The notes: a model not told the origin generated them from the sequence alone. Counted from the first letter of the stretch, positions 33,208 to 53,229 are shown. The stretch is DNA of 64,000 nucleotides from a virus (IMGVR_UViG_3300033120_000761:22554-86553); one strand, 5' to 3'. Numbers and translations are program-made.

Positions 33208-33607
33208 TATCAGGAGATGCCACGACATAGAATTAGTTAAAAAGCTACATTTAGAAACGTTCCCTACCGATGAGTGGTATTCGAATCCAAAAGCAGAGTC
33301 ATGGGTTGTGTGGTTGGATAAGAAGCCCGTAGGATTTTGCATGGTATCAATATGGGATGGAAAATATGGTTTTTTGGCAAGGGCAGGATTGTTAAGGGAA
33401 GCTCGCGGTTGTGGGCTACATATGCGTTTGATAAAGGTAAGAGAGTCTTTTTGCCGGAGAAATGGTTTTACTAAAGTTCTCACCTACACTAAGATGGATA
33501 ATATTACATCGAATCGTAACTTACAGAAGGCGGGGTTTTATCTTTATATTCCCCAATATTCGTATGCAGATCCAGACTGTTTATACTGGATGAAGGAATT
33601 GAAATGA
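33188..33607 (+). CDS. GNAT-family acetyltransferase
   Basis: RAGLLREARGCGLHMRLI motif A, NITSNRNLQKAGF motif B; ATG 33188 after GAGGAAGG. Confidence 0.85.
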   Translation: MSEKKFSIRRCHDIELVKKLHLETFPTDEWYSNPKAESWVVWLDKKPVGFCMVSIWDGKYGFLARAGLLREARGCGLHMRLIKVRESFCRRNGFTKVLTYTKMDNITSNRNLQKAGFYLYIPQYSYADPDCLYWMKELK

Positions 33608-33903
33608 AATTAGCAGAAGAAGTTTTAAGCTTATTTGAATCCGCCACATTGGTTTATACAGATGTCCTAACCATCGATCCCGATGCTTCCGATTCTTATA
33701 ACGATGAGGCAATTAGGAAGCAGATCATTAAGGAAATAAAACCATTCAATCTGTCTTTTTTAAAATTTAAAGTTTTGGGAACGGAGGGTGAAGACGGTGC
33801 CGAGGTTGAGATTTCAATCAAGGGAGATCCAGATAAGCTTAAAAAATTCGTTAACAAGTATGCTGGTATGGATAACGTAAAAAATCCGGAAGTATTAAAA
33901 TGA
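33604..33903 (+). CDS. putative internal head protein (leader MKLAEEVLSLFE)
   Basis: shared N-terminal leader. Confidence 0.55.
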   Translation: MKLAEEVLSLFESATLVYTDVLTIDPDASDSYNDEAIRKQIIKEIKPFNLSFLKFKVLGTEGEDGAEVEISIKGDPDKLKKFVNKYAGMDNVKNPEVLK

Positions 33904-34199
33904 GTGAGAAAAATCTATCGGTATGTTTGCCGATTCAAAAGGATAAGCCAGAAGATGTTCAGAGATATATGTTCCATTGTCCGGGATGCCAATATGGTCA
34001 TGCATTTGATGAGAAAACATGGCATTTTAACTATGATCTTATTAAGCCTACCCTCACGCCCAGTTATCTTACAGGGCAAGATAATTTTACAAAAATGAGA
34101 TGCCATTCATATATTAGGGATGGGAAAATCCAATTCCTAGATGATTGCTTCCACTCTTTAAAAGGACAGACGGTTGATTTACAACCTCTGCTAGACTAA
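33900..34199 (+). CDS. DUF6527-like zinc-binding protein
   Basis: FHCPGC..GH...W.FN....PTLTPS...RCHSYIRDGKIQFLDDC.H. Confidence 0.7.
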   Translation: MSEKNLSVCLPIQKDKPEDVQRYMFHCPGCQYGHAFDEKTWHFNYDLIKPTLTPSYLTGQDNFTKMRCHSYIRDGKIQFLDDCFHSLKGQTVDLQPLLD

Positions 34200-34300
34200 T
34201 GAAATTAGCCAAGTCACTTACAGTCTTGATCGAAGGTTATTCAGATTCTCTAGATGGGGCAATTAAAATTTATCACGATATTATTAAGGAAACAGCATGA
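34199..34300 (+). CDS. 33-aa micro-ORF carrying the leader (MKLAKSLTVLIE)
   Basis: hand-translated; TAATG and ATGA overlaps on both sides. Confidence 0.5.
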   Translation: MKLAKSLTVLIEGYSDSLDGAIKIYHDIIKETA

Positions 34301-35211
34301 GTTTAGTTAACGACATCAAAGGTCTATTATCAGAAGAATTCATCACGCTTGAGGGATCTCTAGGTATTCCTCGTGATGAGATGCCTCAGATCGATTCTGA
34401 GCATATTGAACCATTCTTAGATTATCTAAAAGAAATTGGGTGCAATACTTCTGAAGTTCAAAAAGAAGCACATGAATTAAAACCTTCTCAAGCTGAATTA
34501 GATCCTGCTAAGGCAGATAAAATTTGGTCAGATGGCGGAACATTCAAGAATCCTATTTTCACATCTAAAGATGGATATGTTCTAGACGGACACCATAGAT
34601 GGCTTGCAGCTTTGAGAAATGCTGATAAAGAAAAGATGAATTGTATCGAGCTAGATTTAGATGCAAGAGAGGCAATTGAAAAAATGCACGAGTTTGAGCA
34701 TACAAAAGTTAGAGGCATCGATGATAAATTGATTGAGAGTCTTGATCGCCTATTAAGAGAGGATGCTGAAAAACTATCTTCTTTAACCAAAGAAGTTCTC
34801 GGTGAATTAGAAATTGAGTGTGCAGAATTTACTAGAGACTGGCCGGATGAAGTATTCACGGCAGATCTTGGTGAGACTATTTTGGACTCTAGGGGTAAAA
34901 AGATCTCAAAAGAACCCGTAATCCATTCAATTAAAATTCTATCTCCATACGATTTATTATCTCAGTTCTTAGATAATTTTGATAAGCAAATTAATACTAA
35001 AGACGTTAAAGAATCGGACTATGCGACTGTTTTTTCAGGATTGATTGGAAATTCTTATGAACTTCAAAGCTCTACTGACTTCAAAAAAGAAGGTGGTGAA
35101 TCTGAAGGATCAGAAGACATTTTCTTCACAATCAAAATTATTTCATTGAAATATAACCCGCGAGCTGGAATAATTGAGGTTAAGTTCAAAGAAAGTAATT
35201 TTAACCTCTAG
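34297..35211 (+). CDS. ParB/sulfiredoxin-like domain protein, putative internal head protein
   Basis: LKPSQ...PIFTSKDGYVLDGHHRW; leader MSLVNDIKGLLSE. Confidence 0.65.
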   Translation: MSLVNDIKGLLSEEFITLEGSLGIPRDEMPQIDSEHIEPFLDYLKEIGCNTSEVQKEAHELKPSQAELDPAKADKIWSDGGTFKNPIFTSKDGYVLDGHHRWLAALRNADKEKMNCIELDLDAREAIEKMHEFEHTKVRGIDDKLIESLDRLLREDAEKLSSLTKEVLGELEIECAEFTRDWPDEVFTADLGETILDSRGKKISKEPVIHSIKILSPYDLLSQFLDNFDKQINTKDVKESDYATVFSGLIGNSYELQSSTDFKKEGGESEGSEDIFFTIKIISLKYNPRAGIIEVKFKESNFNL

Positions 35212-35221
35212 ATTGTATCCG

Positions 35222-35280
35222 ATGGGGAAACTCATACTTTCAAACGAAAGAATTTTTCACATTCTCTAGGATGAAGGAAA
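35222..35280 (+). pseudogene. degenerate duplicate of the queE 5' end
   Basis: 35241-35280 matches 35911-35950 at 36/40 nt; reads MGKLILSNERIFHIL*DEG versus QueE MSGNTIVLANERIFHTLQGEG. Confidence 0.8.
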
Positions 35281-35295
35281 TAAAAAAGGAAAAAA

Positions 35296-35835
35296 ATGAA
35301 TTTATCAGAGAATGTACTAAAGTTATTAGGGGAAGATTCCACATTCTTCAAACCCGAAGTAGCTAAAAAGGAAGTATCAAAAATATTAGACTCGTTAGCT
35401 AAAGTATCTCATGGTTTAGTTGAAAAATATCAGGGAAGCATAGCAGGAAATAGCTCTAGTCCATCTGCACCCGATACATCTAAATTTATATCTCAACATT
35501 CGGGGATGATTGAATATATGTCTAATGAAGTAGTTAGAGACCGTTTTCCAAGATTCGTTTCGACGGGTGTTAAAATAGGCAGAAATGTCGATATAGAAAC
35601 AACTAAAGCTATAAAGAAAGAATTTATAAAAATGTTTAATAAGTTTCAGTCTAAGTTTGGTGGTGATGGTACTTCGCATATCAGAGTCAGGTTTGGTGAT
35701 GAAGAGTATGGCCCACACTACTCAATTACGCTCATCGACGTTAGTGGATCAAATTGGGGCTGTGTCGGAGTGCAGATAGAGAAAAGGGATGGCAATGGAG
35801 ATCATAATACCAAGATTTCGCATTTATATAAATAA
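35296..35835 (+). CDS. putative internal head protein (leader MNLSENVLKLLGE)
   Basis: 179-aa ORF with shared leader, AAGGA RBS. Confidence 0.6.
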   Translation: MNLSENVLKLLGEDSTFFKPEVAKKEVSKILDSLAKVSHGLVEKYQGSIAGNSSSPSAPDTSKFISQHSGMIEYMSNEVVRDRFPRFVSTGVKIGRNVDIETTKAIKKEFIKMFNKFQSKFGGDGTSHIRVRFGDEEYGPHYSITLIDVSGSNWGCVGVQIEKRDGNGDHNTKISHLYK

Positions 35836-35859
35836 GGAATAACACGAAACTAGCAAAAA

Positions 35860-35874
35860 GTGTAAATTTTACAC
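35860..35874. promoter_or_regulatory. 15-bp palindrome, candidate operator upstream of queE
   Basis: GTGTAAA-T-TTTACAC. Confidence 0.4.
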
Positions 35875-35885
35875 ATAGGTAATAA

Positions 35886-36617
35886 ATGTCCGGGAACACA
35901 ATAGTACTCGCAAACGAAAGAATTTTTCACACTCTCCAAGGTGAAGGAAAGTATATGGGTTATCCATGTACGTTCGTACGTTTATCACTCTGCAATTTAC
36001 GTTGTGAGTGGAGGAATAAAGATGGCAGTTCAACTAGATGCGATACACCATATACCTCGTTTGAACCTGAAAAAAATGATGTAGAAATTGATCAGATTAT
36101 AAAAGAAGTGTCTGATAAAAATTATCATGTGGTTGTTTCTGGTGGAGAACCATTTTTTCAAGCTAATGTTTCAGAGCTAATTAAAGAATTAAGACTTAAT
36201 AATAAATATGTAACCGTTGAAACAAATGGAACTATTTATAGAGAAAATCAAGCAGATTTCATTTCATTATCCCCTAAATTAAAATCATCATCTTCTAATC
36301 CTGAGCGCGGACAAATTCATGATAAGCAAAGAATCAATCTCGGAGCTTTATCTAAGTTTATTGTTAATCACGATTATCAATTTAAGTTCGTGGTTAATAA
36401 TGAGGAAGAAGTCGAAGAAATCTTAGATATTAAAGGAGAGCTTTGGAAATTAACGGGTATCGATATTTCAGAAAAAATTTGGTTAATGCCTCAAGGTGTT
36501 GCTAAAGAACAATTTGATGAAAAGGCAGAATGGATCTGGGATATTTGTAAAAAACACCACTGGAAATATACTGATAGACTGCATATCAGAGTTTATGGTC
36601 AAAGAGTTGGTGTATGA
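35886..36617 (+). CDS. queE: 7-carboxy-7-deazaguanine synthase (radical SAM)
   Basis: FHTLQGEG, CNLRC...CDT cluster motif, SGGEP, VETNGT, SPKL, LMPQG, RLH. Confidence 0.93.
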   Translation: MSGNTIVLANERIFHTLQGEGKYMGYPCTFVRLSLCNLRCEWRNKDGSSTRCDTPYTSFEPEKNDVEIDQIIKEVSDKNYHVVVSGGEPFFQANVSELIKELRLNNKYVTVETNGTIYRENQADFISLSPKLKSSSSNPERGQIHDKQRINLGALSKFIVNHDYQFKFVVNNEEEVEEILDIKGELWKLTGIDISEKIWLMPQGVAKEQFDEKAEWIWDICKKHHWKYTDRLHIRVYGQRVGV

Positions 36618-36874
36618 AATTAGCGAATCACCTATTACTAGTCTTAGCAGAAGCTACCAAATTTCCTACAATAATCAGTTGTTCCAAATCATCCGTAACG
36701 GTGGCATGGAGTAAAGATTCTATTTTCAAATATGAATGTAATGATTATATGAGAGGAATAGCTACCGATAGAATCGATGCGACTTCAAAACTATTGCCAG
36801 TATTAGATAGGAAAATGCTATCTTATATTTCTAAAAATAAAGACACGCTTAACGGAACAAAGGTAGAAGAATGA
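36614..36874 (+). CDS. putative internal head protein (leader MKLANHLLLVLAE)
   Basis: 86-aa ORF with shared leader. Confidence 0.55.
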   Translation: MKLANHLLLVLAEATKFPTIISCSKSSVTVAWSKDSIFKYECNDYMRGIATDRIDATSKLLPVLDRKMLSYISKNKDTLNGTKVEE

Positions 36875-37320
36875 AATTAGCTCAAGAACTAAAAAAATTA
36901 GTTAATGAAGATCTAGATTCTTCTTATGTTGTTTTTGGCTTTGAGGGTAAACCCGATCTTGCTAATGATCATGTTACTCTAATGTATTTCGGTAAAATAG
37001 AGGAAGATAAGGTTCAAGAAATTATCTCTCTAATCGATTCATATATGGAAGAGAATAAACCAAAAGAGTTTGAAGCTGTTTTTGATAAAGTTTCTATGTT
37101 CGGCCCTGAGAATGATGTAAGGGTTTTAGAGGCTAAGGATAAGAACGTCTTTTTAATCAAGCTCAGAGAGCTTCTAGCGCCTTATAATGGCTCTAAGTTT
37201 ACTGACTTCAATCCTCATTATACAAATGATTCATTAGATTCATTTACGGGCATCATCGATAGATTACAATTTTCACAATCAGAATATAAAGAAATAAAAA
37301 CTTGGAATTTAGGAGATTAA
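36871..37320 (+). CDS. 2H phosphoesterase (LigT/2'-5' RNA ligase/Acb1 superfamily), putative internal head protein
   Basis: two HxT motifs (DHVTL, PHYT) with typical spacing; leader MKLAQELKKLVNE. Confidence 0.8.
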   Translation: MKLAQELKKLVNEDLDSSYVVFGFEGKPDLANDHVTLMYFGKIEEDKVQEIISLIDSYMEENKPKEFEAVFDKVSMFGPENDVRVLEAKDKNVFLIKLRELLAPYNGSKFTDFNPHYTNDSLDSFTGIIDRLQFSQSEYKEIKTWNLGD

Positions 37321-37322
37321 TC

Positions 37323-37509: not shown

Positions 37510-37525
37510 ATAAGGTAATTAATTT

Positions 37526-38182: not shown

Positions 38183-38190
38183 GAATGAAG

Positions 38191-39240
38191 ATGTTATCGA
38201 GGCAAATTTTAAAACTGTTAGAAGATGCCTCGGAGCCTTGGTTATCCTATTTAGATGATAAGCCTAAGACTAGAGAGTATGTTGTAAAAGCAATTGAAGA
38301 TCTGGATGCAGGCTTAGAAAATAAGGTGATCTGGAATACCGAATTTCTAAATATAAAATCTAGATTAGGATCTCTTTGTTATGATTTATTTCATGATGTG
38401 AAAAGAGATGCGATTAAGAAAGTCACAATGACACCGGAAGAATTAGCATATTTTGAAGAAAAGATTTATATGCTCGCGGTTCAAGCTCCAAGAATGATTC
38501 TAAAGAAAATAGGATCAGATAATAATCCAGGCCTAAAGTTTATGGTTGAGACGCTGATTAAACCAATAGCGGATCTTCTGGAAAAAATAAATAAATTAAA
38601 AGAATTTGTTCAGAAGGGAAGAAAGCCTAACCCTAATGCTAAGACTAAGCCTGTTTTTGATCCCGGATATTCTTCTAAGGAAGATACTGAAAAAGTAAAA
38701 AATATCTATGAAGAATTATTAAAAGAATGGCTTCCTAAACAAATAGCTGAGATTGAAGATCAACAAGAAAAAATGATTGTTGATCTTCAAAAGTTATTAA
38801 GGGATGGTACGCCTGCTGAAAAATCTAATAAGAGATCTCACCCAGGAAGAATTTACTTTGACTTATCTGATAGGTTAGAAAAAGATTATAAGAAGAAAAT
38901 AAAAGAAAAGGCCGTGAAAGAGGCGAAAGCTATCCAAGAAGCTTTTACGATTAAGAATATTAAAAAAGTCACAAGTATTATTTCTAATAAGGGTGATTTA
39001 AAAGATTCTAAAATTGTAAAAACGTCTTCTAGGGACGGTATCATGGAAGGGATTATAAAATTTCTTTTTAGTGATGGATCTTCATTCTCGGTGAAGAATC
39101 AGGTAGTGGTTGTTTGGGATACTCGTAAACCATTTTATAGATTCCCAACGACTTTCATTGATATTGAAATGCCAGATAAGGTAAAGCATAAAATGAAATC
39201 CGAAGAATGGATGAACATTAATTTCAAAAGAGTAGCGTAA
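38191..39240 (+). CDS. putative internal head protein (leader MLSRQILKLLE)
   Basis: 350-aa ORF with leader; start 38185 or 38191. Confidence 0.6.
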   Translation: MLSRQILKLLEDASEPWLSYLDDKPKTREYVVKAIEDLDAGLENKVIWNTEFLNIKSRLGSLCYDLFHDVKRDAIKKVTMTPEELAYFEEKIYMLAVQAPRMILKKIGSDNNPGLKFMVETLIKPIADLLEKINKLKEFVQKGRKPNPNAKTKPVFDPGYSSKEDTEKVKNIYEELLKEWLPKQIAEIEDQQEKMIVDLQKLLRDGTPAEKSNKRSHPGRIYFDLSDRLEKDYKKKIKEKAVKEAKAIQEAFTIKNIKKVTSIISNKGDLKDSKIVKTSSRDGIMEGIIKFLFSDGSSFSVKNQVVVVWDTRKPFYRFPTTFIDIEMPDKVKHKMKSEEWMNINFKRVA

Positions 39241-40469
39241 TGAAATTAGCAGAGGAATTAATTAGATTGATACCCGTAGATGAAGTTATAAATGCTTCTA
39301 AGCTTAGGCATTCTACTCGCATGGTTTTTAATAATCCTGATTTTGATCGATATACGGTTTTAAATCAAGGTGAAACTACCAAGGCCGTAGTAGTTAATAA
39401 TAAAGAGCAGTATCGGATAATCGAATTAACCACTAATCAAAATTTAGCATCATCGAATATGATGATTTTTAATGATGATAAAAATTCTGCTATTGAATAT
39501 CTTTTAGATGGCTATTATGAAGATGAATTGGTTGCACAAACCAAAGCTTTCTATATGCGCCACAGCCTATCTGGTGGCGACGTTCCTGCTAACAAATTAC
39601 CTAAAATAAAAATAAAAAGTGATTCAAAGTGGATTAAGAAAGAAAAGCTATATCTTTGGTTGATCAAAGAAGGTATTCCAGATGTTCAAATTAAGATCGT
39701 GTTTCCTGACCTTATAAATTTAGATTCTGCTGAGACATCAATATCTCATGGGGATTTTACCCTTATTGGATTCGCCGAAGATAAACATAAATTTTTATTA
39801 TCCGTAATAGATGATTCAACAAAGCTGTTAAATAAGGCAGGGTTTAAAGATATTTCTTATGGAAAAGTCTATCTGGCCACGAAGAAAAACTCTTCAACTA
39901 CTAGAACCCTAGCAGACTACATTTCTAATGATGATAGTATGCGCGTTTTTGATATAAAAACTTCTCAAGAACAATCCGTATTAACTTTCACTCATGAGCT
40001 TGGGCATAGATATTATTATAAGCGACTCTCTCCCCTATCTAGAGAATTGATCGGAAAAGAATTTATCAAAAATATGCGCCTTGATATGGAAGATCAAAAA
40101 GAAGTAAATAAACAAATCAGAGGTTCTATTCCTGATTATAAAGTCGGGGATAAAATAAAAGATAAGAAATATGGCGATCTTGTTTTTTCTGGTGTCGGGG
40201 GTGTTAATCTTAACTCCAGAAAGATGGTTCTGAAATTCCACTTATTAAAAAATAATGAGAAGACCAATAAAATTTTAACTTTTGATAGTATGCTCGATGC
40301 TATACTGTATTTTAATAAAGATTCGCTAAAAGGTAAAAATAAAGCTAATCCTTGGATTCCCACAGCTTACTCTAAAACCAGTGCAGTTGAATGGTTCGCG
40401 GAAATTTTCTCATACTCTGTTGTAGAGAAAAATAAAGAGATCTTAGATTGGATAAAAGGGCTTAAATAA
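39240..40469 (+). CDS. zincin-like metallopeptidase, putative internal head protein
   Basis: THELGH (HExxH) and downstream EWFAE; leader MKLAEELIRLIPVDE. Confidence 0.7.
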   Translation: MKLAEELIRLIPVDEVINASKLRHSTRMVFNNPDFDRYTVLNQGETTKAVVVNNKEQYRIIELTTNQNLASSNMMIFNDDKNSAIEYLLDGYYEDELVAQTKAFYMRHSLSGGDVPANKLPKIKIKSDSKWIKKEKLYLWLIKEGIPDVQIKIVFPDLINLDSAETSISHGDFTLIGFAEDKHKFLLSVIDDSTKLLNKAGFKDISYGKVYLATKKNSSTTRTLADYISNDDSMRVFDIKTSQEQSVLTFTHELGHRYYYKRLSPLSRELIGKEFIKNMRLDMEDQKEVNKQIRGSIPDYKVGDKIKDKKYGDLVFSGVGGVNLNSRKMVLKFHLLKNNEKTNKILTFDSMLDAILYFNKDSLKGKNKANPWIPTAYSKTSAVEWFAEIFSYSVVEKNKEILDWIKGLK

Positions 40470-43662: not shown

Positions 43663-44908
43663 CAAACTAAGTATCGGAACTAAAAAAGTAATATCGGAGT
43701 CAGCCGAAATTTATGCCAATCTTTATTCAGTTATGGTTGGATTAAAAAACGATAAGACTGGAGACAATACTGCCACTATCATTGTTGATGGCGGTCAGTT
43801 GATGGATAAATTCGAGGCTCAACATTTAAAAGGTGTTGATGGTGCGATAGCTTATGTAAAATCCCAATACAAACTTTCACTAAGTTCGTCAGAAGAAAAA
43901 GAATTAAGATCTGAGCTTAAGGAACTTTTAAAAAGAAAGGGTGTAGCAAATGAATCAGATGATGATTCAACAGACGATCTTGAATCTGCAATCGATGATG
44001 TTGAAGATATGGACGATGAATACACATTCTCAGAAGATGCGATAGCTGATAGGCGCGGATTAAGATTAGTATTTGAAGATTTAGACAAATATCATAGGTT
44101 ATTTATATCTAAGCTTAAGTTGGCTGGAAAAATAATGAAGCGCATGGAAGTCGGAGTTGAAATCGACGATAAATATATTGATGATATCTCTGAGCAATTA
44201 GAAGATATATTGAGTCATGTTGAAATGGCAATGAATGATGGGAAAGTTACGGAAGGTATGCATTACCACACTCGTATTCGTCAACTTGAAGCCGCGATTC
44301 ACCCTAAGAAAGTAAAGCTTGCTGTTAGAGAATCAAAATCAATGCTGGAAGCAATCATGGATGATAAACACCCATCCGCTAACCCATGCTCAGAAGACGA
44401 TATGAAGATCCTTATAGATGCTCAATCTAAAATGGAATCAATCATTGAAGGACTACAAAAAGTTCGCGTAGCTAAAAGAAAGCGTAAAAACGAAGACGAT
44501 GAAGAAACATTTGATGATGAGCAAGATGCGGCAGCAGATGAATTACCAGATGCAAGTGAAGGATTAGCTTTAGCAAAACGTTTAACTACTTTTGTTGAAT
44601 CATTAGGCCCTATTTCTGAATTAGCTGGTGATGGTCTAGATGCTTTAAGAAAGAAAATCGATAAGGCAGAAGAACTAGCAGATAAGCTTTATACTAAATA
44701 TTACGATTACCGCCAAGAAGGCAGGAAAGTAATGGCCAAGAAGAAAGGCGTTCGTAGAACTAAAGAACAACTTGCTAAAGATAAAGCTGAGAGACTTAAA
44801 TTTAGAGCACAATCAGATAAGATGCACGATGCTTACACTAAAGCTCAACAGTATGTATCAGATTTCAAAGCTCAATTAAAAGCTGCAAAAGAAAAGGCTG
44901 CAAAGTAA
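43628..44908 (+). CDS. prohead core / internal head protein
   Basis: ATG 43628 after GGGAG; acidic coiled coil with many (L/V/I)-x-E sites; between portal and protease. Confidence 0.55.
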   Translation: MRNAKGLLEKFSKLSIGTKKVISESAEIYANLYSVMVGLKNDKTGDNTATIIVDGGQLMDKFEAQHLKGVDGAIAYVKSQYKLSLSSSEEKELRSELKELLKRKGVANESDDDSTDDLESAIDDVEDMDDEYTFSEDAIADRRGLRLVFEDLDKYHRLFISKLKLAGKIMKRMEVGVEIDDKYIDDISEQLEDILSHVEMAMNDGKVTEGMHYHTRIRQLEAAIHPKKVKLAVRESKSMLEAIMDDKHPSANPCSEDDMKILIDAQSKMESIIEGLQKVRVAKRKRKNEDDEETFDDEQDAAADELPDASEGLALAKRLTTFVESLGPISELAGDGLDALRKKIDKAEELADKLYTKYYDYRQEGRKVMAKKKGVRRTKEQLAKDKAERLKFRAQSDKMHDAYTKAQQYVSDFKAQLKAAKEKAAK

Positions 44909-45549
44909 TGATTTCAAAATCTTTATTAAAATTATTAAAAGAAGACGGGCCGGACAATGATCTAGGCCTTGTCTCTTTATTAGCGGATGCTGGGATTTCG
45001 GAAGAAGTTCAAGTAGACGATGTTACCGTGGATGATGAGGGAGATGCTGTAGTTACCTTCGTTAATGACGATGATGAGCTCGTCGTAGTTTTCACTGTTG
45101 ACGAAGAAATTCCGATGGCAGTAATTATCGAAGATGATGATGAGGAAGATGAAGTAGAATACTTCGATCTATCTGATCTTAATCCACCCATGAAAGACGG
45201 TAAAATTGATTTCTCAATTCCAATGAGTGATTGGTTAGATGTAGATACTCTTCTAGATATTCTAGATGGGGAAGATGAATTTGAAGACGAAGAAGCCGTA
45301 TCAGAAACATCAGTCTATGTTGTGAGAGGAGGGCAACGAGTAAAAAAGCCCTTAGTGAGAAGAAAAAGAAAAAAGCTTCTCACCTCAGCGAGAAAATTCG
45401 CAATCAGAAAAGCCGTAAGAAGTAGACGAAGAACTCAGGCCCAAGCGAATAGAAAGAGAAAAAGATCTCTACAGATTCGTAAAAGAGCAAAACTTAAAAC
45501 GAATCGTAATTCAAGAATGAAGGTGGCAGGAACTACATCACATCTTTAA
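44908..45549 (+). CDS. prohead core protein (T4 gp68-like)
   Basis: acidic N-half, basic tail AQANRKRKRSLQIRKRAKL resembling gp68 RAQRKRKKALKRRKAL; leader MISKSLLKLLKE. Confidence 0.6.
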   Translation: MISKSLLKLLKEDGPDNDLGLVSLLADAGISEEVQVDDVTVDDEGDAVVTFVNDDDELVVVFTVDEEIPMAVIIEDDDEEDEVEYFDLSDLNPPMKDGKIDFSIPMSDWLDVDTLLDILDGEDEFEDEEAVSETSVYVVRGGQRVKKPLVRRKRKKLLTSARKFAIRKAVRSRRRTQAQANRKRKRSLQIRKRAKLKTNRNSRMKVAGTTSHL

Positions 45550-46270: not shown

Positions 46271-46288
46271 AGTCAAGGACAAGGTCAG

Positions 46289-47014
46289 ATGAAATTCTTA
46301 AACGTTTTAGACGTTCAAACTTTTCTACTAGAGATAAACGCCATTGATAAGGTCATAGGCGTTTCTAAAGATTATCAACCGACAAATGAGGAGATTGCTT
46401 CTTTCATTAAAGGTAGAAATCCTTTAGTCTCTAAATTAAAAGACTATAGAAAATCTTCTGATCAAAAAGCCAATTGGCGCGGTAACAGAACCAAGATGAT
46501 GAAAGGGATCAAAGCATTCCATAAGTCAGTCGAAGGTAAAAGATTCCATCGTCGCCTCGGCCGTTTCATGGCCACCAGAATAACTAGACCTAAATCTTCT
46601 AATGAAAATTATCAATCGCTTTTGGATAAACAAGAACATCTGAAAGGATTAAATGCGGTTAAAACCCATATGTTCGTGGAACTAGAATATTTCCATCAAG
46701 TCCAGGAACAGGTAGAATTAGAAGAAATGTTGATTGAATATGCAGTTCCTTTATTCCAAGTCATTGAAAAAAAGATAATTACTGATGAGGAATTGGATGA
46801 TGATGAACTTGTATTTCTGATGGATCTGACAGAGCCAGATGCCTTATTAGATGCTTTAAGCACAGAATCGGGCGTTGAATTTGCAGAAATTCAAAAACTC
46901 TGGAATACTATCTCATGTACATTAGAAGATGGCGGGCTTGCAAAAGATGATTCAAAGTTTTATCCTACTTTGATTACTGATCTAAAAAAGCAATTGGGTT
47001 TAGCAAATGACTAA
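46289..47014 (+). CDS. hypothetical head-module protein
   Basis: 241-aa ORF directly upstream of the protease. Confidence 0.65.
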   Translation: MKFLNVLDVQTFLLEINAIDKVIGVSKDYQPTNEEIASFIKGRNPLVSKLKDYRKSSDQKANWRGNRTKMMKGIKAFHKSVEGKRFHRRLGRFMATRITRPKSSNENYQSLLDKQEHLKGLNAVKTHMFVELEYFHQVQEQVELEEMLIEYAVPLFQVIEKKIITDEELDDDELVFLMDLTEPDALLDALSTESGVEFAEIQKLWNTISCTLEDGGLAKDDSKFYPTLITDLKKQLGLAND

Positions 47015-48386
47015 AAAGTTAAATGATTTAATTGACCCGAAACTTAAATTCGAACTCGTAGAGTCGAGTGAAGTCGATGGTAAAAATATTCTAGCCAAAG
47101 TCAAAGGACAATTTTTTTGTCCCGATGCTAATTCTAGAAACGGCAGATTCTACCCTAAAGAACTTTGGGAAAAAGTAATTTCTTCACCAAATGTTCAAAG
47201 AATGCTTAAGAAAAGATTAATGTGGGGAACTGTAGGCCATGATGCTGAATTAGGTGAAAAAGCTATTCGCGAAGGTATTACATCTCACGTTATGACATCT
47301 ATCTTTATTGATGATCAAAATAGAGGTATGGGTGAAGCCCTTATCCTTGATACTCCGGTCGGAAGAATCCTGAATACATTATTAAGAGCTGGTTGTGAAC
47401 TCTATGTTTCATCTAGAGCTAATGGTGATTTTGCAGGAAAACATAATGGCGTTCCTGTGGTTAATCCGCAAACTTATGATTTAGTAGGTTGGGACTTCGT
47501 TATCGATCCTGGATTTTTAGATGCCAATCCTACAATCGCTGAATCATATAACTCAGCACTTTCAAAATTAGAAGAATCAGAAAATAACCTTGGAGATACT
47601 AAGATGGAAAAAGAACTAGTTGAACACATCATGAAGGAGAATAACTCTCAGAAGACTGACATTGCTAAATTAACAACGGAAGTTGTTGATCTAAAAGAAA
47701 ACAATGGCGCTCTATTCGATGAGAACAAACACCTGAAAGAACAACTTTCTACTTTTGAAGAAGTAAGTGCAAAGCTTAAAAAATATGAAGAAATGGGTGA
47801 GCCAGAAGACGTTGAAAAAGCTCTAGAGCTTGGTGACGAAGCTGCTGACGAACTTGAAAAATACAAGTCTATGGGATCGCCAGACGAAGTAAAAGAATCT
47901 CTAACAAAAGCAAAAAACTATATTGCTAAATTCCATGCAAACATCGGAACTTATAAAGTAGTTGAATCTGCTCTTATTAAAGCAAAAAAATTCCAAGAAT
48001 CTGTTGCTGAAATCGGAACAATCTCTGAGATCAAAGGAATCTGTAAAAGATTCAATGTTCTTTTAGAAGAAGTTGAGCAAACAGAACAAGACCAGATCGC
48101 ATCTGATTTAGCGGCGAAATTAGAAATCGACGTTGAAAAAGTAAAAGAACTTCTAGCAAAAGATCTATCTGTTGAAGACATTGAAAAAATGTATGCTACA
48201 GTAGAAGAGAAGTTCAAAAAAGCAGCTCCGGCACCAGCTCCTAAAAACGAATCTAAACCAACAGATAAGTATAAGAAGCCTGCTGTTACTGAAGCTAAGA
48301 AAGAAACTGAAGAAAAACCATACGAATCAAAAATCGTTGGTAGAACTTTAGTTGATAAGCTTAACGAGAGCTACGGAACTAAATAA
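47007..48386 (+). CDS. prohead protease (T4 gp21-like) fused to C-terminal scaffold domain
   Basis: NSRNGRFYP, GTVGH, SH, LDTPVG, VSSRANG, DFVIDPG; about 260-aa coiled-coil extension. Confidence 0.88.
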   Translation: MTKKLNDLIDPKLKFELVESSEVDGKNILAKVKGQFFCPDANSRNGRFYPKELWEKVISSPNVQRMLKKRLMWGTVGHDAELGEKAIREGITSHVMTSIFIDDQNRGMGEALILDTPVGRILNTLLRAGCELYVSSRANGDFAGKHNGVPVVNPQTYDLVGWDFVIDPGFLDANPTIAESYNSALSKLEESENNLGDTKMEKELVEHIMKENNSQKTDIAKLTTEVVDLKENNGALFDENKHLKEQLSTFEEVSAKLKKYEEMGEPEDVEKALELGDEAADELEKYKSMGSPDEVKESLTKAKNYIAKFHANIGTYKVVESALIKAKKFQESVAEIGTISEIKGICKRFNVLLEEVEQTEQDQIASDLAAKLEIDVEKVKELLAKDLSVEDIEKMYATVEEKFKKAAPAPAPKNESKPTDKYKKPAVTEAKKETEEKPYESKIVGRTLVDKLNESYGTK

Positions 48387-48494: not shown

Positions 48495-49913
48495 ATGATT
48501 GACGAAAGCCTACAAAACGCAATGGACGCACAAAACGCTCAAAAGTATTTCACGAAATATAAGAAATACTGTGAAGCATTCGAGAAATCGGTTGTTTCTA
48601 GAGCAATCAACCTTTCTGAACACCACATCGTTCAATTAGGTAAACAACTTGAAGCGTTCGAACTTTACGCTAAAATTTGTGAAAACTCAGGGTCTTTAAA
48701 CACTCTTGGGGAAATTCCAAAAATCGCTCTAGATGTAATCACTGCTGTTATGTCTAACTCTGTTCTTCCAGTAATCGCGTCTACTCAAGTAATTGAGCAA
48801 CAAAGACAAATGATTTACTTCAAGAACCTAAGAGCTGACAACACTAAGGGTAACCTTACTGCTGGTCAAGTTATCTTAGACCCAAAAACTGGTATGAAGA
48901 CTCCAAAAGGATATGCTTCAAACCGTCTTAACGGTCTTGAGATGGCAACAACTGCTCTTGCAACTGTTGACTACACATTCACTCTTCCTGCTCTTCCAGT
49001 ACAATCTCAATTCATGAAAATTGAAGTTGAGTCTGACGCTACTGTTTTCGCAGAAGATGTTGGTCCTCGTGGAGCTGACAAGAACATCGGTACTCTTTTA
49101 GGTGCTGGCGTTTCAGGAACTGTTAACTATACTTCTGGTGTAGTAGTTCTTAAGTTTGCTGTTCAACCAACTGCTGCTAAGAAAATTTATGTTTCTTACC
49201 AACAGAACATGGAACTAGCTGCTGACCTTCCAAAAATGACTTCTTTCCTTGATCAGACAGATGTTGAAGCTCAGGCTTACGTTCTTAAGACTGTAGTTGG
49301 TATGTTCCAACAATATGCTCTTAAGAAAACTTTCGGTGACTCTGCTCTTGAAGATACAGCAATGGATCTTACAAAAGAGATCAACGCTGAAATCGGTGGT
49401 GACTTCATTTCTAAATACCTTGTGGCTGCAATGGGATCTACTCAGTTCTCTCTAACAGCTCCAGCGGGTGTTTCTGAAAAACTACACAGAGAATCATACG
49501 CGTTCCGTATGTCAGATGCTGAAGCGGTAATGCTTGGAAACGCTGGCCGTGGAACTATCAAAACTATGATCGTTGGACGTGAGCACGCTGCTCTAGTTCG
49601 CGGACTAGATGGATTCAACTTACTATCAGATGGTGGTTCAGTTGGTCCTCATATTTTTGGTACATACAAAGGGATTACTTATATCCGCGTACCAGAAGAT
49701 GCTCTTCTTGGTGCTAAAAAAGGGATCGCGCTTTACACGGGATCTTCTGCAATTGAATCGGCTGGTGTTTACTGCCCATTCATGCCGTTGACTGTAAGAC
49801 AAGCTCCGGCTAACAACAACAACCCTCTACAAGACCAAACTGTAGCGGCAACGTTAGCGGCTACGAAAGTAGTTGTTCCTCAGTTCATCACAGCTTTTGA
49901 CGTAGTAGTTTAA
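48495..49913 (+). CDS. major capsid protein (T4 gp23-like)
   Basis: 472 aa after protease/scaffold, highly biased codon usage, EINAEI and VYCPFMPL motifs, followed by a terminator. Confidence 0.88.
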   Translation: MIDESLQNAMDAQNAQKYFTKYKKYCEAFEKSVVSRAINLSEHHIVQLGKQLEAFELYAKICENSGSLNTLGEIPKIALDVITAVMSNSVLPVIASTQVIEQQRQMIYFKNLRADNTKGNLTAGQVILDPKTGMKTPKGYASNRLNGLEMATTALATVDYTFTLPALPVQSQFMKIEVESDATVFAEDVGPRGADKNIGTLLGAGVSGTVNYTSGVVVLKFAVQPTAAKKIYVSYQQNMELAADLPKMTSFLDQTDVEAQAYVLKTVVGMFQQYALKKTFGDSALEDTAMDLTKEINAEIGGDFISKYLVAAMGSTQFSLTAPAGVSEKLHRESYAFRMSDAEAVMLGNAGRGTIKTMIVGREHAALVRGLDGFNLLSDGGSVGPHIFGTYKGITYIRVPEDALLGAKKGIALYTGSSAIESAGVYCPFMPLTVRQAPANNNNPLQDQTVAATLAATKVVVPQFITAFDVVV

Positions 49914-49926
49914 TCTACGCTTAGAG

Positions 49927-49954
49927 GGGAGGGAGCAATCCTTCCCTTTTTTTT
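49927..49954 (+). terminator. Rho-independent terminator after capsid gene
   Basis: GGGAGGGA-GCAA-TCCTTCCC then T8. Confidence 0.85.
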
Positions 49955-49980
49955 ATTCATTTTTGTTAAAGGAAGGACGC

Positions 49981-50412: not shown

Positions 50413-50430
50413 TTATGATGGCGGTGTCGT

Positions 50431-51132
50431 TTGGAATTAAAAGAAATGTTCGATCGTATTCTTCTAAGATCTGGTCAATTTGTTTTGGCCAAGTCTAAGA
50501 TTGAAGTTGATAATGACTCATTTAAAATTTTAGTTGAAGACGCACTTGCCACTTATTCAAAAGCCTGTCCTCATGTTGTCGATTACGTCATTTCATTGAT
50601 GAATCCAAGACAATTTAGATTCACTCCTGACTTCGATCCAGAGATGGGAAGAGTACCGGATTGGATTTCTGAGTGTAACCCTGTTCAATATTCAGGGATC
50701 TCATTAGCCTCATTTTACATGGGCAATAACAACATTTTCGGATCTAACAATAGATCTGAATTGATTGACCCTATTCAAGCCCCTTGGCGCTATAACAAGC
50801 CCGTCTTAACGGTTCCTTTCACTTCTAAGTATGAAATTAAGGCCGTCTATAAACACCGCTTAACTAAGGTCCCTTGTGAATCTGATAATGTTGATTCTGG
50901 TGGGACTAGAGATTGGGAATGCAAAACAATCACCATCGATGATACAGTTTTCTTTAAATTACTTCAGGCCTATTTCTTAATGGGAATCGGAAGATCTCGT
51001 AGAGCATTCACTATGAATGATTTACCTATCCTTATGGATGCCGATGCTATCGCTTCTGAAGGAAAAGAAATGGAAGAGCAAGCAAAAGCTGATCTCCAAG
51101 ATGTTCAGAAATTTTACTTGGCAATGGGATAA
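50431..51132 (+). CDS. neck / head-tail adaptor protein (T4 gp13-like)
   Basis: position after MCP; C-terminal LPILMDADAIASEGKEMEE resembles gp13-type ending. Confidence 0.6.
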   Translation: MELKEMFDRILLRSGQFVLAKSKIEVDNDSFKILVEDALATYSKACPHVVDYVISLMNPRQFRFTPDFDPEMGRVPDWISECNPVQYSGISLASFYMGNNNIFGSNNRSELIDPIQAPWRYNKPVLTVPFTSKYEIKAVYKHRLTKVPCESDNVDSGGTRDWECKTITIDDTVFFKLLQAYFLMGIGRSRRAFTMNDLPILMDADAIASEGKEMEEQAKADLQDVQKFYLAMG

Positions 51133-51134
51133 AT

Positions 51135-51452
51135 ATGAATTTAGCAAAATCTCTTATGGATACATTGAATGAAGAAATCGATCTCGTATCGGATGTTCAG
51201 AACATTCAAAAGGTTATTCAAAAAGAGTTTCAAAGAACTAAACTAAACAAGAAAATTTCTAAAGTTACTCTCCCGCAAGAAAAGAAAGTATTATTTAATA
51301 GATCTTCTGGCGGCGGTAATGTTGAGATTTCTTCCCCAGGAACTAAAGTTGAAGTTGAGGGTGGAGAAATAATTGAAGGAAATTTTGTAATATACTTATC
51401 ATTTAGAGATGAACGAGTTACGATTTCATATAACTTTTTGAAGGGAAAATAA
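51135..51452 (+). CDS. putative internal head protein (leader MNLAKSLMDTLNE)
   Basis: shared leader. Confidence 0.55.
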   Translation: MNLAKSLMDTLNEEIDLVSDVQNIQKVIQKEFQRTKLNKKISKVTLPQEKKVLFNRSSGGGNVEISSPGTKVEVEGGEIIEGNFVIYLSFRDERVTISYNFLKGK

Positions 51453-51453
51453 C

Positions 51454-51783
51454 ATGACTAAAAAATTAGCAGAAGCTTTAATTGAAAGCTACAAAGTAAA
51501 TGAATCTGAAATGGAGCCAGAAGTTAAGCCTGAACCTGAAGTAGAGGTTGAGGAAGCAGAAGTTGAGCCAGCCGTTGAAGCTGAAATCGATACAGATGAT
51601 GCTCAATTACTTGCTGTAGTAAACGTTTACTTTAAAAAGATCAATGCAAAACCTGCTGCTACTAAAGCTGATAAACTTGAGAAATTAGTTCACAGACTAA
51701 TCAACTCAATGATTGAAATGCCTCGTGGTGAAAAAGAAGCACGCATTGCCCTTAAATTAGCAATCAAAGAAATCAACGCGTAG
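51454..51783 (+). CDS. putative internal head protein (leader MTKKLAEALIE)
   Basis: leader variant, acidic EVE linker. Confidence 0.5.
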   Translation: MTKKLAEALIESYKVNESEMEPEVKPEPEVEVEEAEVEPAVEAEIDTDDAQLLAVVNVYFKKINAKPAATKADKLEKLVHRLINSMIEMPRGEKEARIALKLAIKEINA

Positions 51784-51796
51784 GAAATAAACAATC

Positions 51797-52102
51797 ATGA
51801 AATCAGCAAAAAAATTATCTGAAAAATTATCAAAAATAGTATCATCTAAGAATGAAGGAATGACTCCGGATGAATGGGAAAAGGAGTGTATTGCATCTAT
51901 CCGAAAGGCAATGGATAAGGCCAGAATAAAATCACGCTCGGTTGTCGGTAGGAAAGAACTCGAACTGTTTATAGAGACTATAATAACTATTATGGTTGAT
52001 ATGGGAGCCGAAATGCCTAGAGAATTAGTCGAATTTTTTGATGATCTAAAAAGTATAGCTAAAAAAGCTACTGAAGATCTACAAGAACTAGATTTTGAAT
52101 AA
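51797..52102 (+). CDS. hypothetical protein (leader-like MKSAKKLSEKL...KNE)
   Basis: 101-aa ORF. Confidence 0.55.
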   Translation: MKSAKKLSEKLSKIVSSKNEGMTPDEWEKECIASIRKAMDKARIKSRSVVGRKELELFIETIITIMVDMGAEMPRELVEFFDDLKSIAKKATEDLQELDFE

Positions 52103-52120
52103 TTTAAAAAATAGGAAATT

Positions 52121-52723
52121 ATGCCCGTAGCTTTAAGACAAATTAAAAAGGAATTGGAATCAGATCGCAATAAGCGTGGAAGGTTTCCTGATGGGGATTA
52201 TAAATTCACTCCTCCTAATATGGTGTCGAGAAAGTTTACTGAATATAAAAAGTTGAAAGTTACTAAATTAACTTCATCTCCAAAGCCAGGATTAAACGCG
52301 GTTGCTTATACTGCCGTCGTGGCTTCTGAGAATAGAGACGGGGAGAGTGCCGGAATAAAGTATAAAACGACTATCCAATTTCACGATATACAGTTCAGAG
52401 ATAAAAAGTCTGAGAGCTTGTATAAAAATGAATTTGAATACATGAACGATGGAAAGTTAAAAAAAGTTTATTATCGCACGGCCAATGTGAATGATAATAA
52501 AGTTATGCTGAAATGTTCTTGTAAAGACTTCCAGCATCGTTTTGAAACAGAATTATATGAGGCAGATGCATTAATCGGTGCTCCAAGAAAGTATCGTAGA
52601 AAAACTCCTCCATGGCCTGTGGGAAGACCTTATGCAAATACGACTGAGAAGCTGGGTATTTGCAAACATTTATATTCAATGTTTGAGCACTTAAAAGCTA
52701 AAGAATTACTGAAGGAAAAATAA
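52121..52723 (+). CDS. SWIM-type zinc-finger protein
   Basis: KCSCKDF...GICKHL (CxC...CxH). Confidence 0.7.
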   Translation: MPVALRQIKKELESDRNKRGRFPDGDYKFTPPNMVSRKFTEYKKLKVTKLTSSPKPGLNAVAYTAVVASENRDGESAGIKYKTTIQFHDIQFRDKKSESLYKNEFEYMNDGKLKKVYYRTANVNDNKVMLKCSCKDFQHRFETELYEADALIGAPRKYRRKTPPWPVGRPYANTTEKLGICKHLYSMFEHLKAKELLKEK

Positions 52724-53229
52724 TGAAAAACTTATCTCAAGAAGTTATAGAAGTATTGAACGAGGTTAACGTTCCCAGAAACGCCCTTTGGTTCGAAGTC
52801 TCTATTAGAGATGGCGGATCTCGTGCATCTGTGCGACTGACTAAGGTTGGCGGTAAATGGAAAGAGATTGTTCTAGATAATGAAGATGATGTAAATATCG
52901 GCGGTAAAACATATCAAAGTTATTTAAAACCTGCCGATATTTTAACATGGTTAAGGGGAGACTTTGATGATGTTCAAGTTACGTCGTTTGATGATGTATC
53001 TAATGATGACGAAGAACAAGACGAATCTTTATCCGAAGCAGATGTTAAACTTAATCTTAAGAATAATATTAGGCGTGATATTTATGCCATTGGTGATGGT
53101 ATTGAGGGATTACTTAATGATCTAATCGAAACGAACAAGGATAGAGAATTAGCAAAAAAAGTTGCTAACCTCGGCAATGCGTATGATGATTTAAGATCTC
53201 ATTTGAATAAAAAATATAATTGGGATTAA
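52723..53229 (+). CDS. putative internal head protein (leader MKNLSQEVIEVLNE)
   Basis: shared leader. Confidence 0.55.
   Translation: MKNLSQEVIEVLNEVNVPRNALWFEVSIRDGGSRASVRLTKVGGKWKEIVLDNEDDVNIGGKTYQSYLKPADILTWLRGDFDDVQVTSFDDVSNDDEEQDESLSEADVKLNLKNNIRRDIYAIGDGIEGLLNDLIETNKDRELAKKVANLGNAYDDLRSHLNKKYNWD

What the first reader, a model, noticed from the sequence alone, without database searches (positions are those of the whole stretch)
33604..53229. Shared N-terminal leader on about 12 unrelated proteins: candidate capsid-targeting and virion cargo-delivery system
Seen: the following ORFs begin with the same amphipathic leader ending in a hydrophobic-x-Glu motif, while their bodies are unrelated: 33604 MKLAEEVLSLFES, 34199 MKLAKSLTVLIEG, 34297 MSLVNDIKGLLSEE, 35296 MNLSENVLKLLGED, 36614 MKLANHLLLVLAEA, 36871 MKLAQELKKLVNED, 38191 MLSRQILKLLED, 39240 MKLAEELIRLIPVDE, 44908 MISKSLLKLLKED, 51135 MNLAKSLMDTLNEE, 51454 MTKKLAEALIES, 52723 MKNLSQEVIEVLNEV. 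The leader is absent from QueE, FolE, GNAT and DUF6527 interleaved in the same run, but present on the gp68-like core protein. Known: T4 internal proteins carry a roughly 10-aa capsid-targeting sequence removed by the gp21 protease after (I/L)-x-E, and a gp21-like protease is encoded at 47007. Inference: this is a different capsid-targeting sequence that loads a modular set of enzymes into the head for injection. The cargo domains (2H, ParB-like, zincin) are those found in phage polyvalent proteins, here apparently split into separate tagged proteins.
Basis: partly seen in the sequence, partly recalled or inferred. Interest (0 to 1): 0.85.

Follow-up and report, generated by a model that had tools for sequence, protein, structure and literature searches.

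The report
Shared capsid-loading tag on phage proteins
An uncultured wastewater phage puts the same 12-15-residue tag, ending in the cutting site of its T4-type head protease, on a dozen unrelated proteins, so it probably loads them into its capsid as phage T4 does; this extends a known mechanism to a distant lineage and is not a new one.

Summary
All 12 listed ORFs begin with an amphipathic helix, M-x-L-[AS]-x-x-[LVI]-x-x-L-[LIVF], followed by hydrophobic-x-Glu at residues 11-15. The core pattern occurs 10 times in the 27,257 residues of the genome's ORFs, always at residues 2-4 of an ORF. Codons vary, upstream DNA is not conserved, and the protein bodies show no BLAST similarity.

It follows the T4 capsid-targeting-sequence (CTS) plan in a distant T4-superfamily phage.
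- The genome has a gp21-family (S77) protease fused to a scaffold-like tail.
- The capsid protein keeps an invariant hydrophobic-x-Glu at residue 63 (T4 cuts gp23 after Glu65).
- AlphaFold leaves the leader as a loose helix outside the folded zincin and ParB/Srx bodies.
- The ParB-like cargo domain recurs in a protein whose leader resembles T4's own (its C-terminal domain recurs in leader-bearing gene clusters of T4-like contigs).
- A ~99%-identical wastewater strain differs by cargo-cassette swaps, and six of the 12 breakpoints lie just after the start of a leader.

Packaging, cleavage and injection were not measured. The scan has reported similar leader families on other phage DNA. Verdict: new member of a known kind, moderate interest.

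The parts
33604..33903 (+). Leader-bearing ORF, 99 aa, function unknown; leader MKLAEEVLSLFE|S
   Evidence: In strain X3 the first 7 codons are kept and the rest is replaced.
34199..34300 (+). Leader-bearing mini-ORF, 33 aa; probably the remnant of a cargo cassette
   Evidence: In X3 this place holds 572 nt that include a 35-nt copy of the 39240 leader.
34297..35211 (+). Leader plus ParB/Srx-fold domain (DGHHRW motif) plus a C-terminal part of unknown function, 304 aa
   Evidence: phrog_2859 E 2e-24. Homologues P0007-P0015. AlphaFold puts leader residues 1-11 below pLDDT 50 and the domain above 88. Foldseek matches ParB-N and sulfiredoxin.
35296..35835 (+). Leader-bearing ORF, 179 aa, function unknown
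   Evidence: The whole gene is replaced by other DNA in X3 and X7.
36614..36874 (+). Leader-bearing ORF, 86 aa, function unknown
   Evidence: It is precisely absent in X3, X7 and X9, with the joint between two ATGAAATTAGC leader starts.
36871..37320 (+). Leader plus 2H phosphoesterase (LigT-like), 149 aa
   Evidence: Pfam LigT_PEase 24.1 bits, cut-off 23.3. NCBIfam RNA 2',3'-cyclic phosphodiesterase, E 6e-8 but 32.8 bits, below its 65.7-bit cut-off. The 62%-identical orthologue P0005 keeps the leader.
38185..39240 (+). Leader-bearing ORF, 351 aa, function unknown
   Evidence: No family or Atlas lead.
39240..40469 (+). Leader plus N-terminal beta domain plus zincin metallopeptidase domain (HELGH at 252-256, Glu384), 409 aa
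   Evidence: 153 HMMER homologues. Invariant H252, E253, H256 and E384. AlphaFold pLDDT 89.7 with residues 1-20 near 50. VIA-align Z 9.8-7 to zincin peptidases over residues 163-409.
41893..43662 (+). Portal protein, T4 gp20-like
   Evidence: Pfam Portal_T4, weak. 40-47% identity to portals of related contigs.
43628..44908 (+). Acidic coiled-coil protein with a leader-like start (MRNAKGLLEKF...VISE); possible core or scaffold protein; the start codon is uncertain
   Evidence: In X3 a replaced segment starts after codon 22.
44908..45549 (+). Leader plus acidic half plus very basic tail, 213 aa; candidate DNA-associated internal or core protein
   Evidence: Its body is fused behind a leader-tagged ParB domain in P0008 (E 1e-26). 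No similarity to T4 gp68.
47007..48386 (+). Prohead protease (S77, gp21 family) fused to a coiled-coil scaffold-like tail; own N-terminus MTKKL...LVE|S
   Evidence: Pfam Peptidase_S77 36.5 bits, cut-off 27; phrog_207 E 2e-28. His78 and Ser135 are invariant with T4 gp21. Conserved hydrophobic-x-Glu at both ends.
48495..49913 (+). Major capsid protein (gp23 family) with a predicted propeptide ending I-C-E63
   Evidence: Pfam Gp23. Glu63 is invariant with a hydrophobic residue at P3 in 9 relatives. T4 gp23 reads LTE65|AEIGG.
51135..51452 (+). Leader-bearing small head-module protein, 105 aa; a positional counterpart with a leader exists in relatives
51454..51783 (+). Short-leader (MTKKLAEALIE|S) acidic protein, 109 aa
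51797..52102 (+). Leader-like ORF, 101 aa (MKSAKKLSEKLSKIV...); weaker match
   Evidence: In X3, 17 leader codons are kept and the body is replaced.
52723..53229 (+). Leader-bearing ORF, 168 aa, function unknown

Best explanation
The leader is this phage's version of the T4 capsid targeting sequence. It is a 12-15-residue N-terminal amphipathic helix. Inferred: it docks newly made proteins onto the scaffold core of the prohead, which here is probably the coiled-coil tail of the protease-scaffold fusion. Inferred: once the shell has closed, the gp21-family serine protease cuts after hydrophobic-x-Glu. This frees the mature proteins inside the head, and at least the enzymes (ParB-like, zincin, 2H phosphoesterase) leave with the DNA at infection. 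Shown: the tag is a separate module placed in front of unrelated bodies, and its codons are where cargo cassettes are gained, lost and exchanged between strains.
For: 1) The tag is position-specific, and it is conserved as peptide while its codons vary. 2) The genome has an S77 protease with the catalytic His and Ser of T4 gp21. Hydrophobic-x-Glu is conserved at the capsid-protein propeptide boundary (Glu63, against Glu65 in T4) and at both ends of the protease across relatives. 3) T4's own processed N-termini, read from NC_000866, have the same plan: MKTYQEFIAE|A, MAKINELLRE|S, MLKEQLIAE|A. The T4 CTS is 10-20 residues, is sufficient for packaging and is removed by gp21 (PMC5694885, PMC9026906). 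4) AlphaFold leaves the leader as a low-confidence helix outside well-folded bodies. In alignments it lies upstream of the conserved domain, with an invariant Glu. 5) The 2H orthologue (62% identity) keeps the tag. The ParB-like domain carries a window-type tag in P0007 and P0008, and in P0009 and P0010 a tag (MKRFTTFIRE) that resembles T4's by eye. The C-terminal domain of P0009 recurs in clusters of leader-bearing genes on contigs with a strong S77 protease. 6) P0008 fuses the tagged ParB domain to the acidic/basic body of 44908. 7) A ~99%-identical 126.8-kb contig differs by cassette replacements. Six of 12 breakpoints lie within 70 nt after a leader start (P = 1.5e-5). One deletion between two leaders is seen in two studies.
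Against: There are no virion proteomics, no N-terminal mapping and no packaging assay, so targeting, cleavage and injection are all inferred. T4 leaders do not score with this leader's position matrix (-5 to +2 bits), so homology of the tags is not shown. Eight tagged genes are interleaved and translationally coupled with 7-deazaguanine synthesis genes, which do not form a classic late head operon. Two distant relatives of 154 kb with the same protease family show no excess of shared N-termini. Tagged proteins in the head-neck module (51135, 51454, 52723) may be structural proteins and not cargo. In the wider zincin family many members begin with some amphipathic helix, so for 39240 the helix could partly be a family trait.
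Confidence: 0.7

Rival explanations
1. The tag is only a processing or assembly propeptide of head components (core, vertex, decoration, scaffold-like proteins). These are degraded or stay in the shell, and little or nothing is delivered to the host.
For: In T4 the same kind of N-terminus is found on gp24, gp22, gp67 and gp21, which are not injected effectors (PMC5694885). Five tagged ORFs lie inside the head-neck module, and 43628 and 44908 look like core proteins.
Against: Eight tagged ORFs lie outside the head module. Three of them have enzyme folds (ParB/Srx, zincin, 2H) typical of proteins predicted to be injected (PMC5512222). Strain-level cassette turnover fits accessory arms-race genes better than structural parts.
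Confidence: 0.15
2. The shared helix is a recognition handle for something other than the prohead. Candidates are a modifying enzyme (for example a radical-SAM maturase, as an earlier scan note proposed for another phage tag), a chaperone, or membrane association.
For: A radical-SAM gene (35886) lies among the tagged genes.
Against: The best matches of the radical-SAM protein are all QueE families. It has 243 aa without a SPASM extension, and it lies with QueC, QueD, FolE and a DpdA-like gene. The tag has no Cys, Ser or Thr pattern and is not hydrophobic enough for membrane insertion. It ends in the motif conserved at the capsid-protein maturation site. It is also present on the protease itself.
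Confidence: 0.08
3. The resemblance is chance or a composition and translation-start bias of an AT-rich genome (MK..., Leu- and Glu-rich starts).
For: Many phage ORFs start with MK, and 14% of the other ORFs have some hydrophobic-x-Glu at residues 9-16.
Against: The core has 10 of 10 matches at N-termini and none in about 27,000 internal positions. Leave-one-out P is about 6e-11. Synonymous codons vary. Strain breakpoints coincide with the tag.
Confidence: 0.01

Closest known systems
Phage T4 capsid targeting sequence on internal proteins IPI-III and Alt, removed by the gp21 prohead protease (Mullaney and Black 1996, as reviewed in PMC9026906, PMC5694885, PMC3012670)
   Same: A short N-terminal propeptide that ends in hydrophobic-x-Glu. 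It sits on proteins with no other similarity. The genome has an S77 protease. The same motif lies at the capsid-protein maturation site. Enzyme cargo has a precedent in Alt.
   Different: The leader has a different consensus (M-K-L-A-x-x-L-x-x-L-L-x-E, 12-15 residues, against MKTYQEFIAE). T4 leaders score at or below 2 bits with its matrix. The protease is fused to a scaffold-like tail. About four times as many tagged genes are present as T4's IPI-III and Alt. The phage is only a distant T4-superfamily member (capsid protein 40% identical to Kleczkowskaviridae). No experiment has been done.
Variable internal-protein (ip) genes of T-even phages, found by their shared signal sequence (Repoila et al. 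1994, as cited in PMC12373910 and PMC9026906)
   Same: Variable sets of unrelated genes share only the leader. Here strains differ by whole-cassette exchange.
   Different: Here the breakpoints can be placed within the first 1-22 codons. One deletion joins two leaders through 11 shared bases. The cassettes are interleaved with DNA-modification genes.
Polyvalent proteins of phages and conjugative elements (Iyer et al. 2017, PMC5512222)
   Same: The same domain repertoire (ParB-like, zincin metallopeptidase, 2H phosphoesterase), predicted to be delivered with the DNA. Homologues P0013 and P0015 are multidomain proteins that combine a ParB domain with an HExxH motif (P0015 also with a Zeta-toxin-like kinase, PF06414).
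   Different: Here each domain is a separate gene product with its own tag, so the defining multidomain architecture is absent.
Long propeptides of ejection proteins in giant phages (phiKZ, 201phi2-1, SPN3US; PMC5694885, PMC10052503)
   Same: A gp21-related protease cuts after Glu, and the propeptides are thought to target proteins into the prohead.
   Different: Those propeptides are mostly over 100 residues, the motif is A/S/G-x-E, and there is no single short tag shared by many proteins.

Membership tests
T4-type CTS / internal-protein system | Propeptide of about 10-20 residues at the extreme N-terminus | tested here: met
   Predicted cut sites lie at residues 11-15 in all 12 ORFs. The core occurs only at residues 2-4 of ORFs.
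T4-type CTS / internal-protein system | Propeptide ends in the protease motif (L/I)-x-E | tested here: met
   12 of 12 ORFs against 21 of 151 other ORFs. The same motif is invariant at capsid-protein Glu63.
T4-type CTS / internal-protein system | gp21-family (S77) prohead protease encoded by the phage | tested here: met
   Pfam PF03420 at 36.5 bits, above the 27-bit cut-off. His78 and Ser135 align with T4 gp21.
T4-type CTS / internal-protein system | Tag shared by proteins that are otherwise unrelated | tested here: met
   No BLAST hits between the bodies. Three bodies have different folds.
T4-type CTS / internal-protein system | Sequence similarity of the tag to T4 MKTYQEFIAE | tested here: not met
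   T4 leaders score -5 to +2 bits with the window's matrix. Only the plan is shared: amphipathic, then hydrophobic-x-Glu.
T4-type CTS / internal-protein system | Tag is sufficient for packaging, is removed in the virion, and the protein is ejected into the host | not testable with these tools
   This needs virion proteomics or fusion assays.
T4-type CTS / internal-protein system | Variable gene content behind a conserved leader | tested here: met
   Cassette swaps and one leader-to-leader deletion in near-identical strains. Breakpoint enrichment P = 1.5e-5.
Peptidase S77 (T4 gp21) | Profile match above the curated cut-off, with catalytic His and Ser | tested here: met
Polyvalent proteins (Iyer 2017) | Two or more disparate effector domains in one polypeptide | tested here: not met
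   Each tagged protein carries at most one recognisable effector domain.
Polyvalent proteins (Iyer 2017) | Domains of the polyvalent repertoire (ParB/Srx, zincin MPTase, 2H) | tested here: met
   ParB/Srx fold and DGHHRW motif, with phrog_11358, a 3431-position profile. Zincin fold with invariant HExxH and Glu. LigT_PEase above cut-off. Membership of the specific DdrB-like or MPTase clades was not tested.
   BLASTP E 0.56. Only the position after the portal and the acidic-then-basic composition are alike.

The most novel reading that the evidence does not exclude
The phage carries a plug-and-play injected arsenal. The domain types that other phages string into giant polyvalent proteins are here split into single genes. 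Each is addressed to the capsid by the same tag, and the tag's own codons serve as the recombination site through which strains exchange cargo. If so, the injected proteome of phages with S77 proteases could be read from sequence, and the tag could be used to load foreign proteins into a non-T4 capsid.
Probability: 0.4. Interest if true: 0.6.

Novelty: new member of a known kind. Interest (0 to 1): 0.5.

Why it matters
If confirmed, a sequence rule (N-terminal amphipathic helix plus the phage's own protease motif) would predict virion cargo in an uncultured lineage. It would name candidate injected enzymes: a ParB-like nuclease or NTPase, a zincin peptidase, a 2H phosphoesterase and five proteins of unknown function. 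These are likely counter-defence or host-takeover factors. It would also link two ideas that have been treated separately: T4 capsid targeting sequences and the predicted injection of polyvalent-protein domains. The strain comparison shows the leader acting as the joint of cassette exchange in nature.

Tried and rejected
- A portal-based scan of viral contigs found nothing.
- Pfam, PHROGs and the ESM Atlas gave no lead for 33604, 35296, 36614, 38185, 51135 or 52723.
- The leader matrix applied to related head-module loci gave only a 2-3-fold N-terminal excess. Two 154-kb distant relatives showed no excess of shared N-termini. The large expansion therefore cannot be claimed for the whole clade.
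- Foldseek found no significant PDB match for the zincin model. Only VIA-align gave Z values above 8.
- The PhiM9 paper contains no data on processing. Repoila 1994 is not held.
- Parts of the laid region without cover in X7, X9 and X11 were not interpreted.
- Explanations by a DNA-level repeat, a promoter or a translation-start box were rejected, because codons and upstream sequence vary.
- The radical-SAM handle idea was rejected as unlikely.


Full report
WHAT THE WINDOW IS. The window is 64 kb of an 86.5-kb virus contig with about 36% G+C. Almost all genes are on the + strand. The head module is distantly T4-like.
- The portal at 41893-43662 gives a weak Pfam Portal_T4 match.
- A 459-aa protein at 47007-48386 has an N-terminal domain that is a Peptidase_S77 (T4 gp21 family: 36.5 bits against a cut-off of 27; phrog_207 E 2e-28). 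Its C-terminal 250 residues are an acidic coiled coil.
- The major capsid protein at 48495-49913 belongs to the gp23 family.
- The nearest cultured capsid proteins are those of Rhizobium phages of the Kleczkowskaviridae (40% identity). Further off are Acinetobacter, Escherichia, Ralstonia and Vibrio phages.
- The record is incomplete. Identical proteins occur on a 123,975-bp contig, and a ~99%-identical 126,773-bp contig extends beyond both ends.
- The phage recurs in wastewater metagenomes from several studies.

All twelve N-termini are present as described.
- The consensus is M-[KNS]-L-[AS]-x-x-[LVI]-x-x-[LV]-[LIVF]-(x)-E. A regex for the core matches ten times in the 27,257 residues of 193 ORFs of the whole contig. 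Every match starts at residue 2-4 of an ORF.
- In leave-one-out scoring, 10 of the 11 ORFs in the position matrix rank within the top 30 of 25,658 background 9-mers. About 0.2 N-terminal hits are expected by chance, and P is about 6e-11.
- Hydrophobic-x-Glu ends at residues 11-15 in 12 of 12 listed ORFs, against 21 of 151 other ORFs (Fisher P = 7e-10).
- The helical hydrophobic moment is twice the background.
- A search that assumes no motif also finds the group. Comparing N-terminal 16-mers all against all gives 62 similar pairs, against 17 for internal segments, and the leader ORFs are the hubs.
- Ala and Leu codons differ between copies, and the DNA upstream is unrelated. Selection therefore acts on the peptide.
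- The bodies give no BLAST hit to one another.
- QueE, FolE, a GNAT and DUF6527, which are interleaved in the same run, lack the tag.
- Three more N-termini are leader-like: the protease itself (MTKKL...LVE|S), the ORF after the portal if it starts at 43628, and 51797-52102.

WHY IT IS MOST LIKELY A CAPSID-TARGETING PROPEPTIDE.

1. The cutting enzyme and its specificity.
- The protease keeps the His and Ser that are invariant with T4 gp21.
- Across nine related capsid proteins the only invariant acidic residue in the N-terminal 70 residues is Glu63. A hydrophobic residue always lies two positions before it, and the conserved mature part begins just after it. T4 gp23 reads L-T-E65|AEIGG in the reference record.
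- The protease-scaffold proteins keep hydrophobic-x-Glu near both ends.

2. T4's own processed N-termini, read from NC_000866, follow the same plan. Examples are IPII and IPIII MKTYQEFIAE|A, gp24 MAKINELLRE|S, gp22 MLKEQLIAE|A and gp21 MNEPQLLIE|T. The literature states the following.
- The 10-20-residue T4 CTS directs proteins to the core and is removed by gp21.
- The first 10 residues of IPIII suffice for packaging.
- IPI-III share nothing except the leader.
- Related phages carry other ip genes recognised by that signal (PMC5694885, PMC9026906, PMC12373910, PMC3012670).

3. The tag is structurally separate from the body.
- AlphaFold models 39240 at pLDDT 89.7, with residues 1-20 near 50.
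- It models the N-terminal domain of 34297 at pLDDT above 88, with residues 1-11 below 50.
- In both models the tag is a helix that is not packed on the body.

4. Comparative evidence.
- The 62%-identical orthologue of the 2H enzyme keeps the tag: MKLAEQVKKLVNE|D.
- Homologues of the ParB-like protein align from SLGIxRDEMPQI onward, and each is preceded by a short N-terminus with an invariant Glu.
- Two of these homologues have window-type tags. Two others (P0009 and P0010) begin MKRFTTFIRE, which resembles T4's tag by eye.
- The C-terminal domain of P0009 recurs in gene clusters whose products begin MKSFKQFVEA, MKRFSKFIQE and MKSFKKFLEE. These clusters lie on contigs that encode a strong S77 protease (E 1e-37).
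- The same cargo domain therefore appears behind at least two different leader types.
- P0008 fuses a tagged ParB domain to the acidic/basic body of 44908 (E 1e-26). This ties the two proteins to one context.

5. Strain variation. In the 126.8-kb contig of run X3 the head genes are 99.5% identical to the window, but the cargo region differs by replacements.
- After codon 7 of 33604, 329 nt are replaced by 473 nt.
- The mini-ORF 34199 and the first 28 nt of 34297 are replaced by 572 nt. These include a 35-nt copy of the 39240 leader.
- The whole 35296 gene is replaced. This is also seen in X7.
- The 86-aa gene 36614 is cleanly absent, with the joint between two ATGAAATTAGC starts. This is seen in X3, X7 and X9, that is in two studies, with an 11-base overlap.
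- A segment is replaced after codon 22 of 43628.
- The body of 51797 is replaced after codon 17.
- Six of the twelve breakpoints fall within 70 nt after a leader start codon, a zone that covers 5% of the region (P = 1.5e-5).
- Variable genes behind a conserved leader are what has been described for T-even ip genes. Here the joints themselves can be placed on the leader.

WHAT THE TAGGED PROTEINS ARE.
- 34297 has a ParB/Srx-fold domain with the DGHHRW motif. It matches phrog_2859 and a 3431-position PHROG profile, and Foldseek gives probability 1.0 to ParB-N domains and sulfiredoxin.
- 36871 is a 2H phosphoesterase.
- 39240 belongs to a family of at least 153 proteins with invariant HExxH and Glu. 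Residues 163-409 have a zincin fold, with VIA-align Z 9.8 to 7 to metallopeptidases of several families.
- 44908 has an acidic half and a very basic tail. This fits a DNA-associated internal or core protein, but it shows no similarity to T4 gp68.
- 33604, 35296, 36614, 38185, 51135, 51454 and 52723 remain without a lead.
- ParB-like, zincin and 2H domains are all listed among the domains of polyvalent proteins predicted to be injected with the DNA (PMC5512222). Homologues P0013 and P0015 are such multidomain proteins. The tagged proteins here are single-domain, so they share the repertoire but not the defining architecture.

LIMITS AND RIVALS.
- Nothing here measures packaging, cleavage or ejection.
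- T4 leaders do not score with this tag's matrix. The tags are alike in plan but not demonstrably homologous.
- Some tagged proteins lie in the head-neck module, or look like core proteins, and may never reach the host.
- The eight upstream genes are coupled to 7-deazaguanine genes and do not form a classic late operon.
- A radical-SAM 'handle' reading was prompted by an earlier scan note. It is unlikely, because the only radical-SAM protein is a short QueE-type enzyme that lies with QueC, QueD and FolE.
- Chance is excluded by the statistics above.
- The expansion to a dozen or more genes was not seen in two distant 154-kb relatives. Related head modules carry only one to four such N-termini.

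VERDICT. It is a further case of the T4 CTS and internal-protein principle in a distant lineage and not a different system. The scan has already reported comparable leader families on other phage DNA. The added value here is the link to the polyvalent-protein domain repertoire and the direct view of cassette exchange at the leader.

Noticed in passing
window 41601-41873 (+): A 90-aa protein that is a complete RNA recognition motif (Pfam RRM_1, E 8e-21) lies directly upstream of the portal gene. It has no leader. A similar small RRM-like ORF appears in the unrelated phage locus L040 (18618-19037).
   Followed up: no
window 40779-41570 (+): A 263-aa protein matches Peptidase_C92 (permuted papain-like amidase, YaeF/YiiX; E 4e-13). 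It lies between the cargo cluster and the portal and has no leader.
   Followed up: no
G000 as a whole; window 33400-53300: The 86.5-kb record is incomplete. A ~99%-identical contig of 126,773 bp (run X3) extends at least 33 kb upstream and about 7 kb downstream of it. Identical proteins lie on a 123,975-bp contig.
   Followed up: partly
window 46289-47014 (+): A 241-aa protein (MKFLNVLDVQTFLLE...) lies directly upstream of the protease in the related loci that reach that far, including Rhizobium phage TM30 (30-40% identity). It matches no family and could be a core or assembly factor.
   Followed up: no
L040 9614-15602; proteins P0030, P0032, P0056 and others: In other phage lineages the zincin homologues and several neighbouring ORFs begin with a different shared N-terminal motif, a basic helix of the type RVA-x-R-[YF]-L. 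This may be a second, unrelated tag family.
   Followed up: no
L036 9062-13022; L039 10399-13516: Contigs with a strong S77 protease carry clusters of 4-6 genes that start MKSFKQF..., MKRFSKFIQE or MIRFKQYLSE. One product combines a P-loop kinase-like domain with a region that matches sigma-factor PHROGs.
   Followed up: partly
L041 (G009) 5180-19975: A complete 157-kb phage also has a protease-scaffold fusion (532 aa). It has a zincin homologue inside its head module and several small ORFs with similar starts (MREQYLQEM..., MMRNQYLKEV...).
   Followed up: no
window 31840-33207 (+): A 455-aa protein combines a calcineurin-like phosphoesterase domain with a homing-endonuclease-associated repeat. 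It lies just upstream of the cargo cluster.
   Followed up: no
window 26387-27067 and 27806-28516 (+): Two paralogous proteins (36% identity, E 1e-38) lie upstream of the DpdA-like gene.
   Followed up: no
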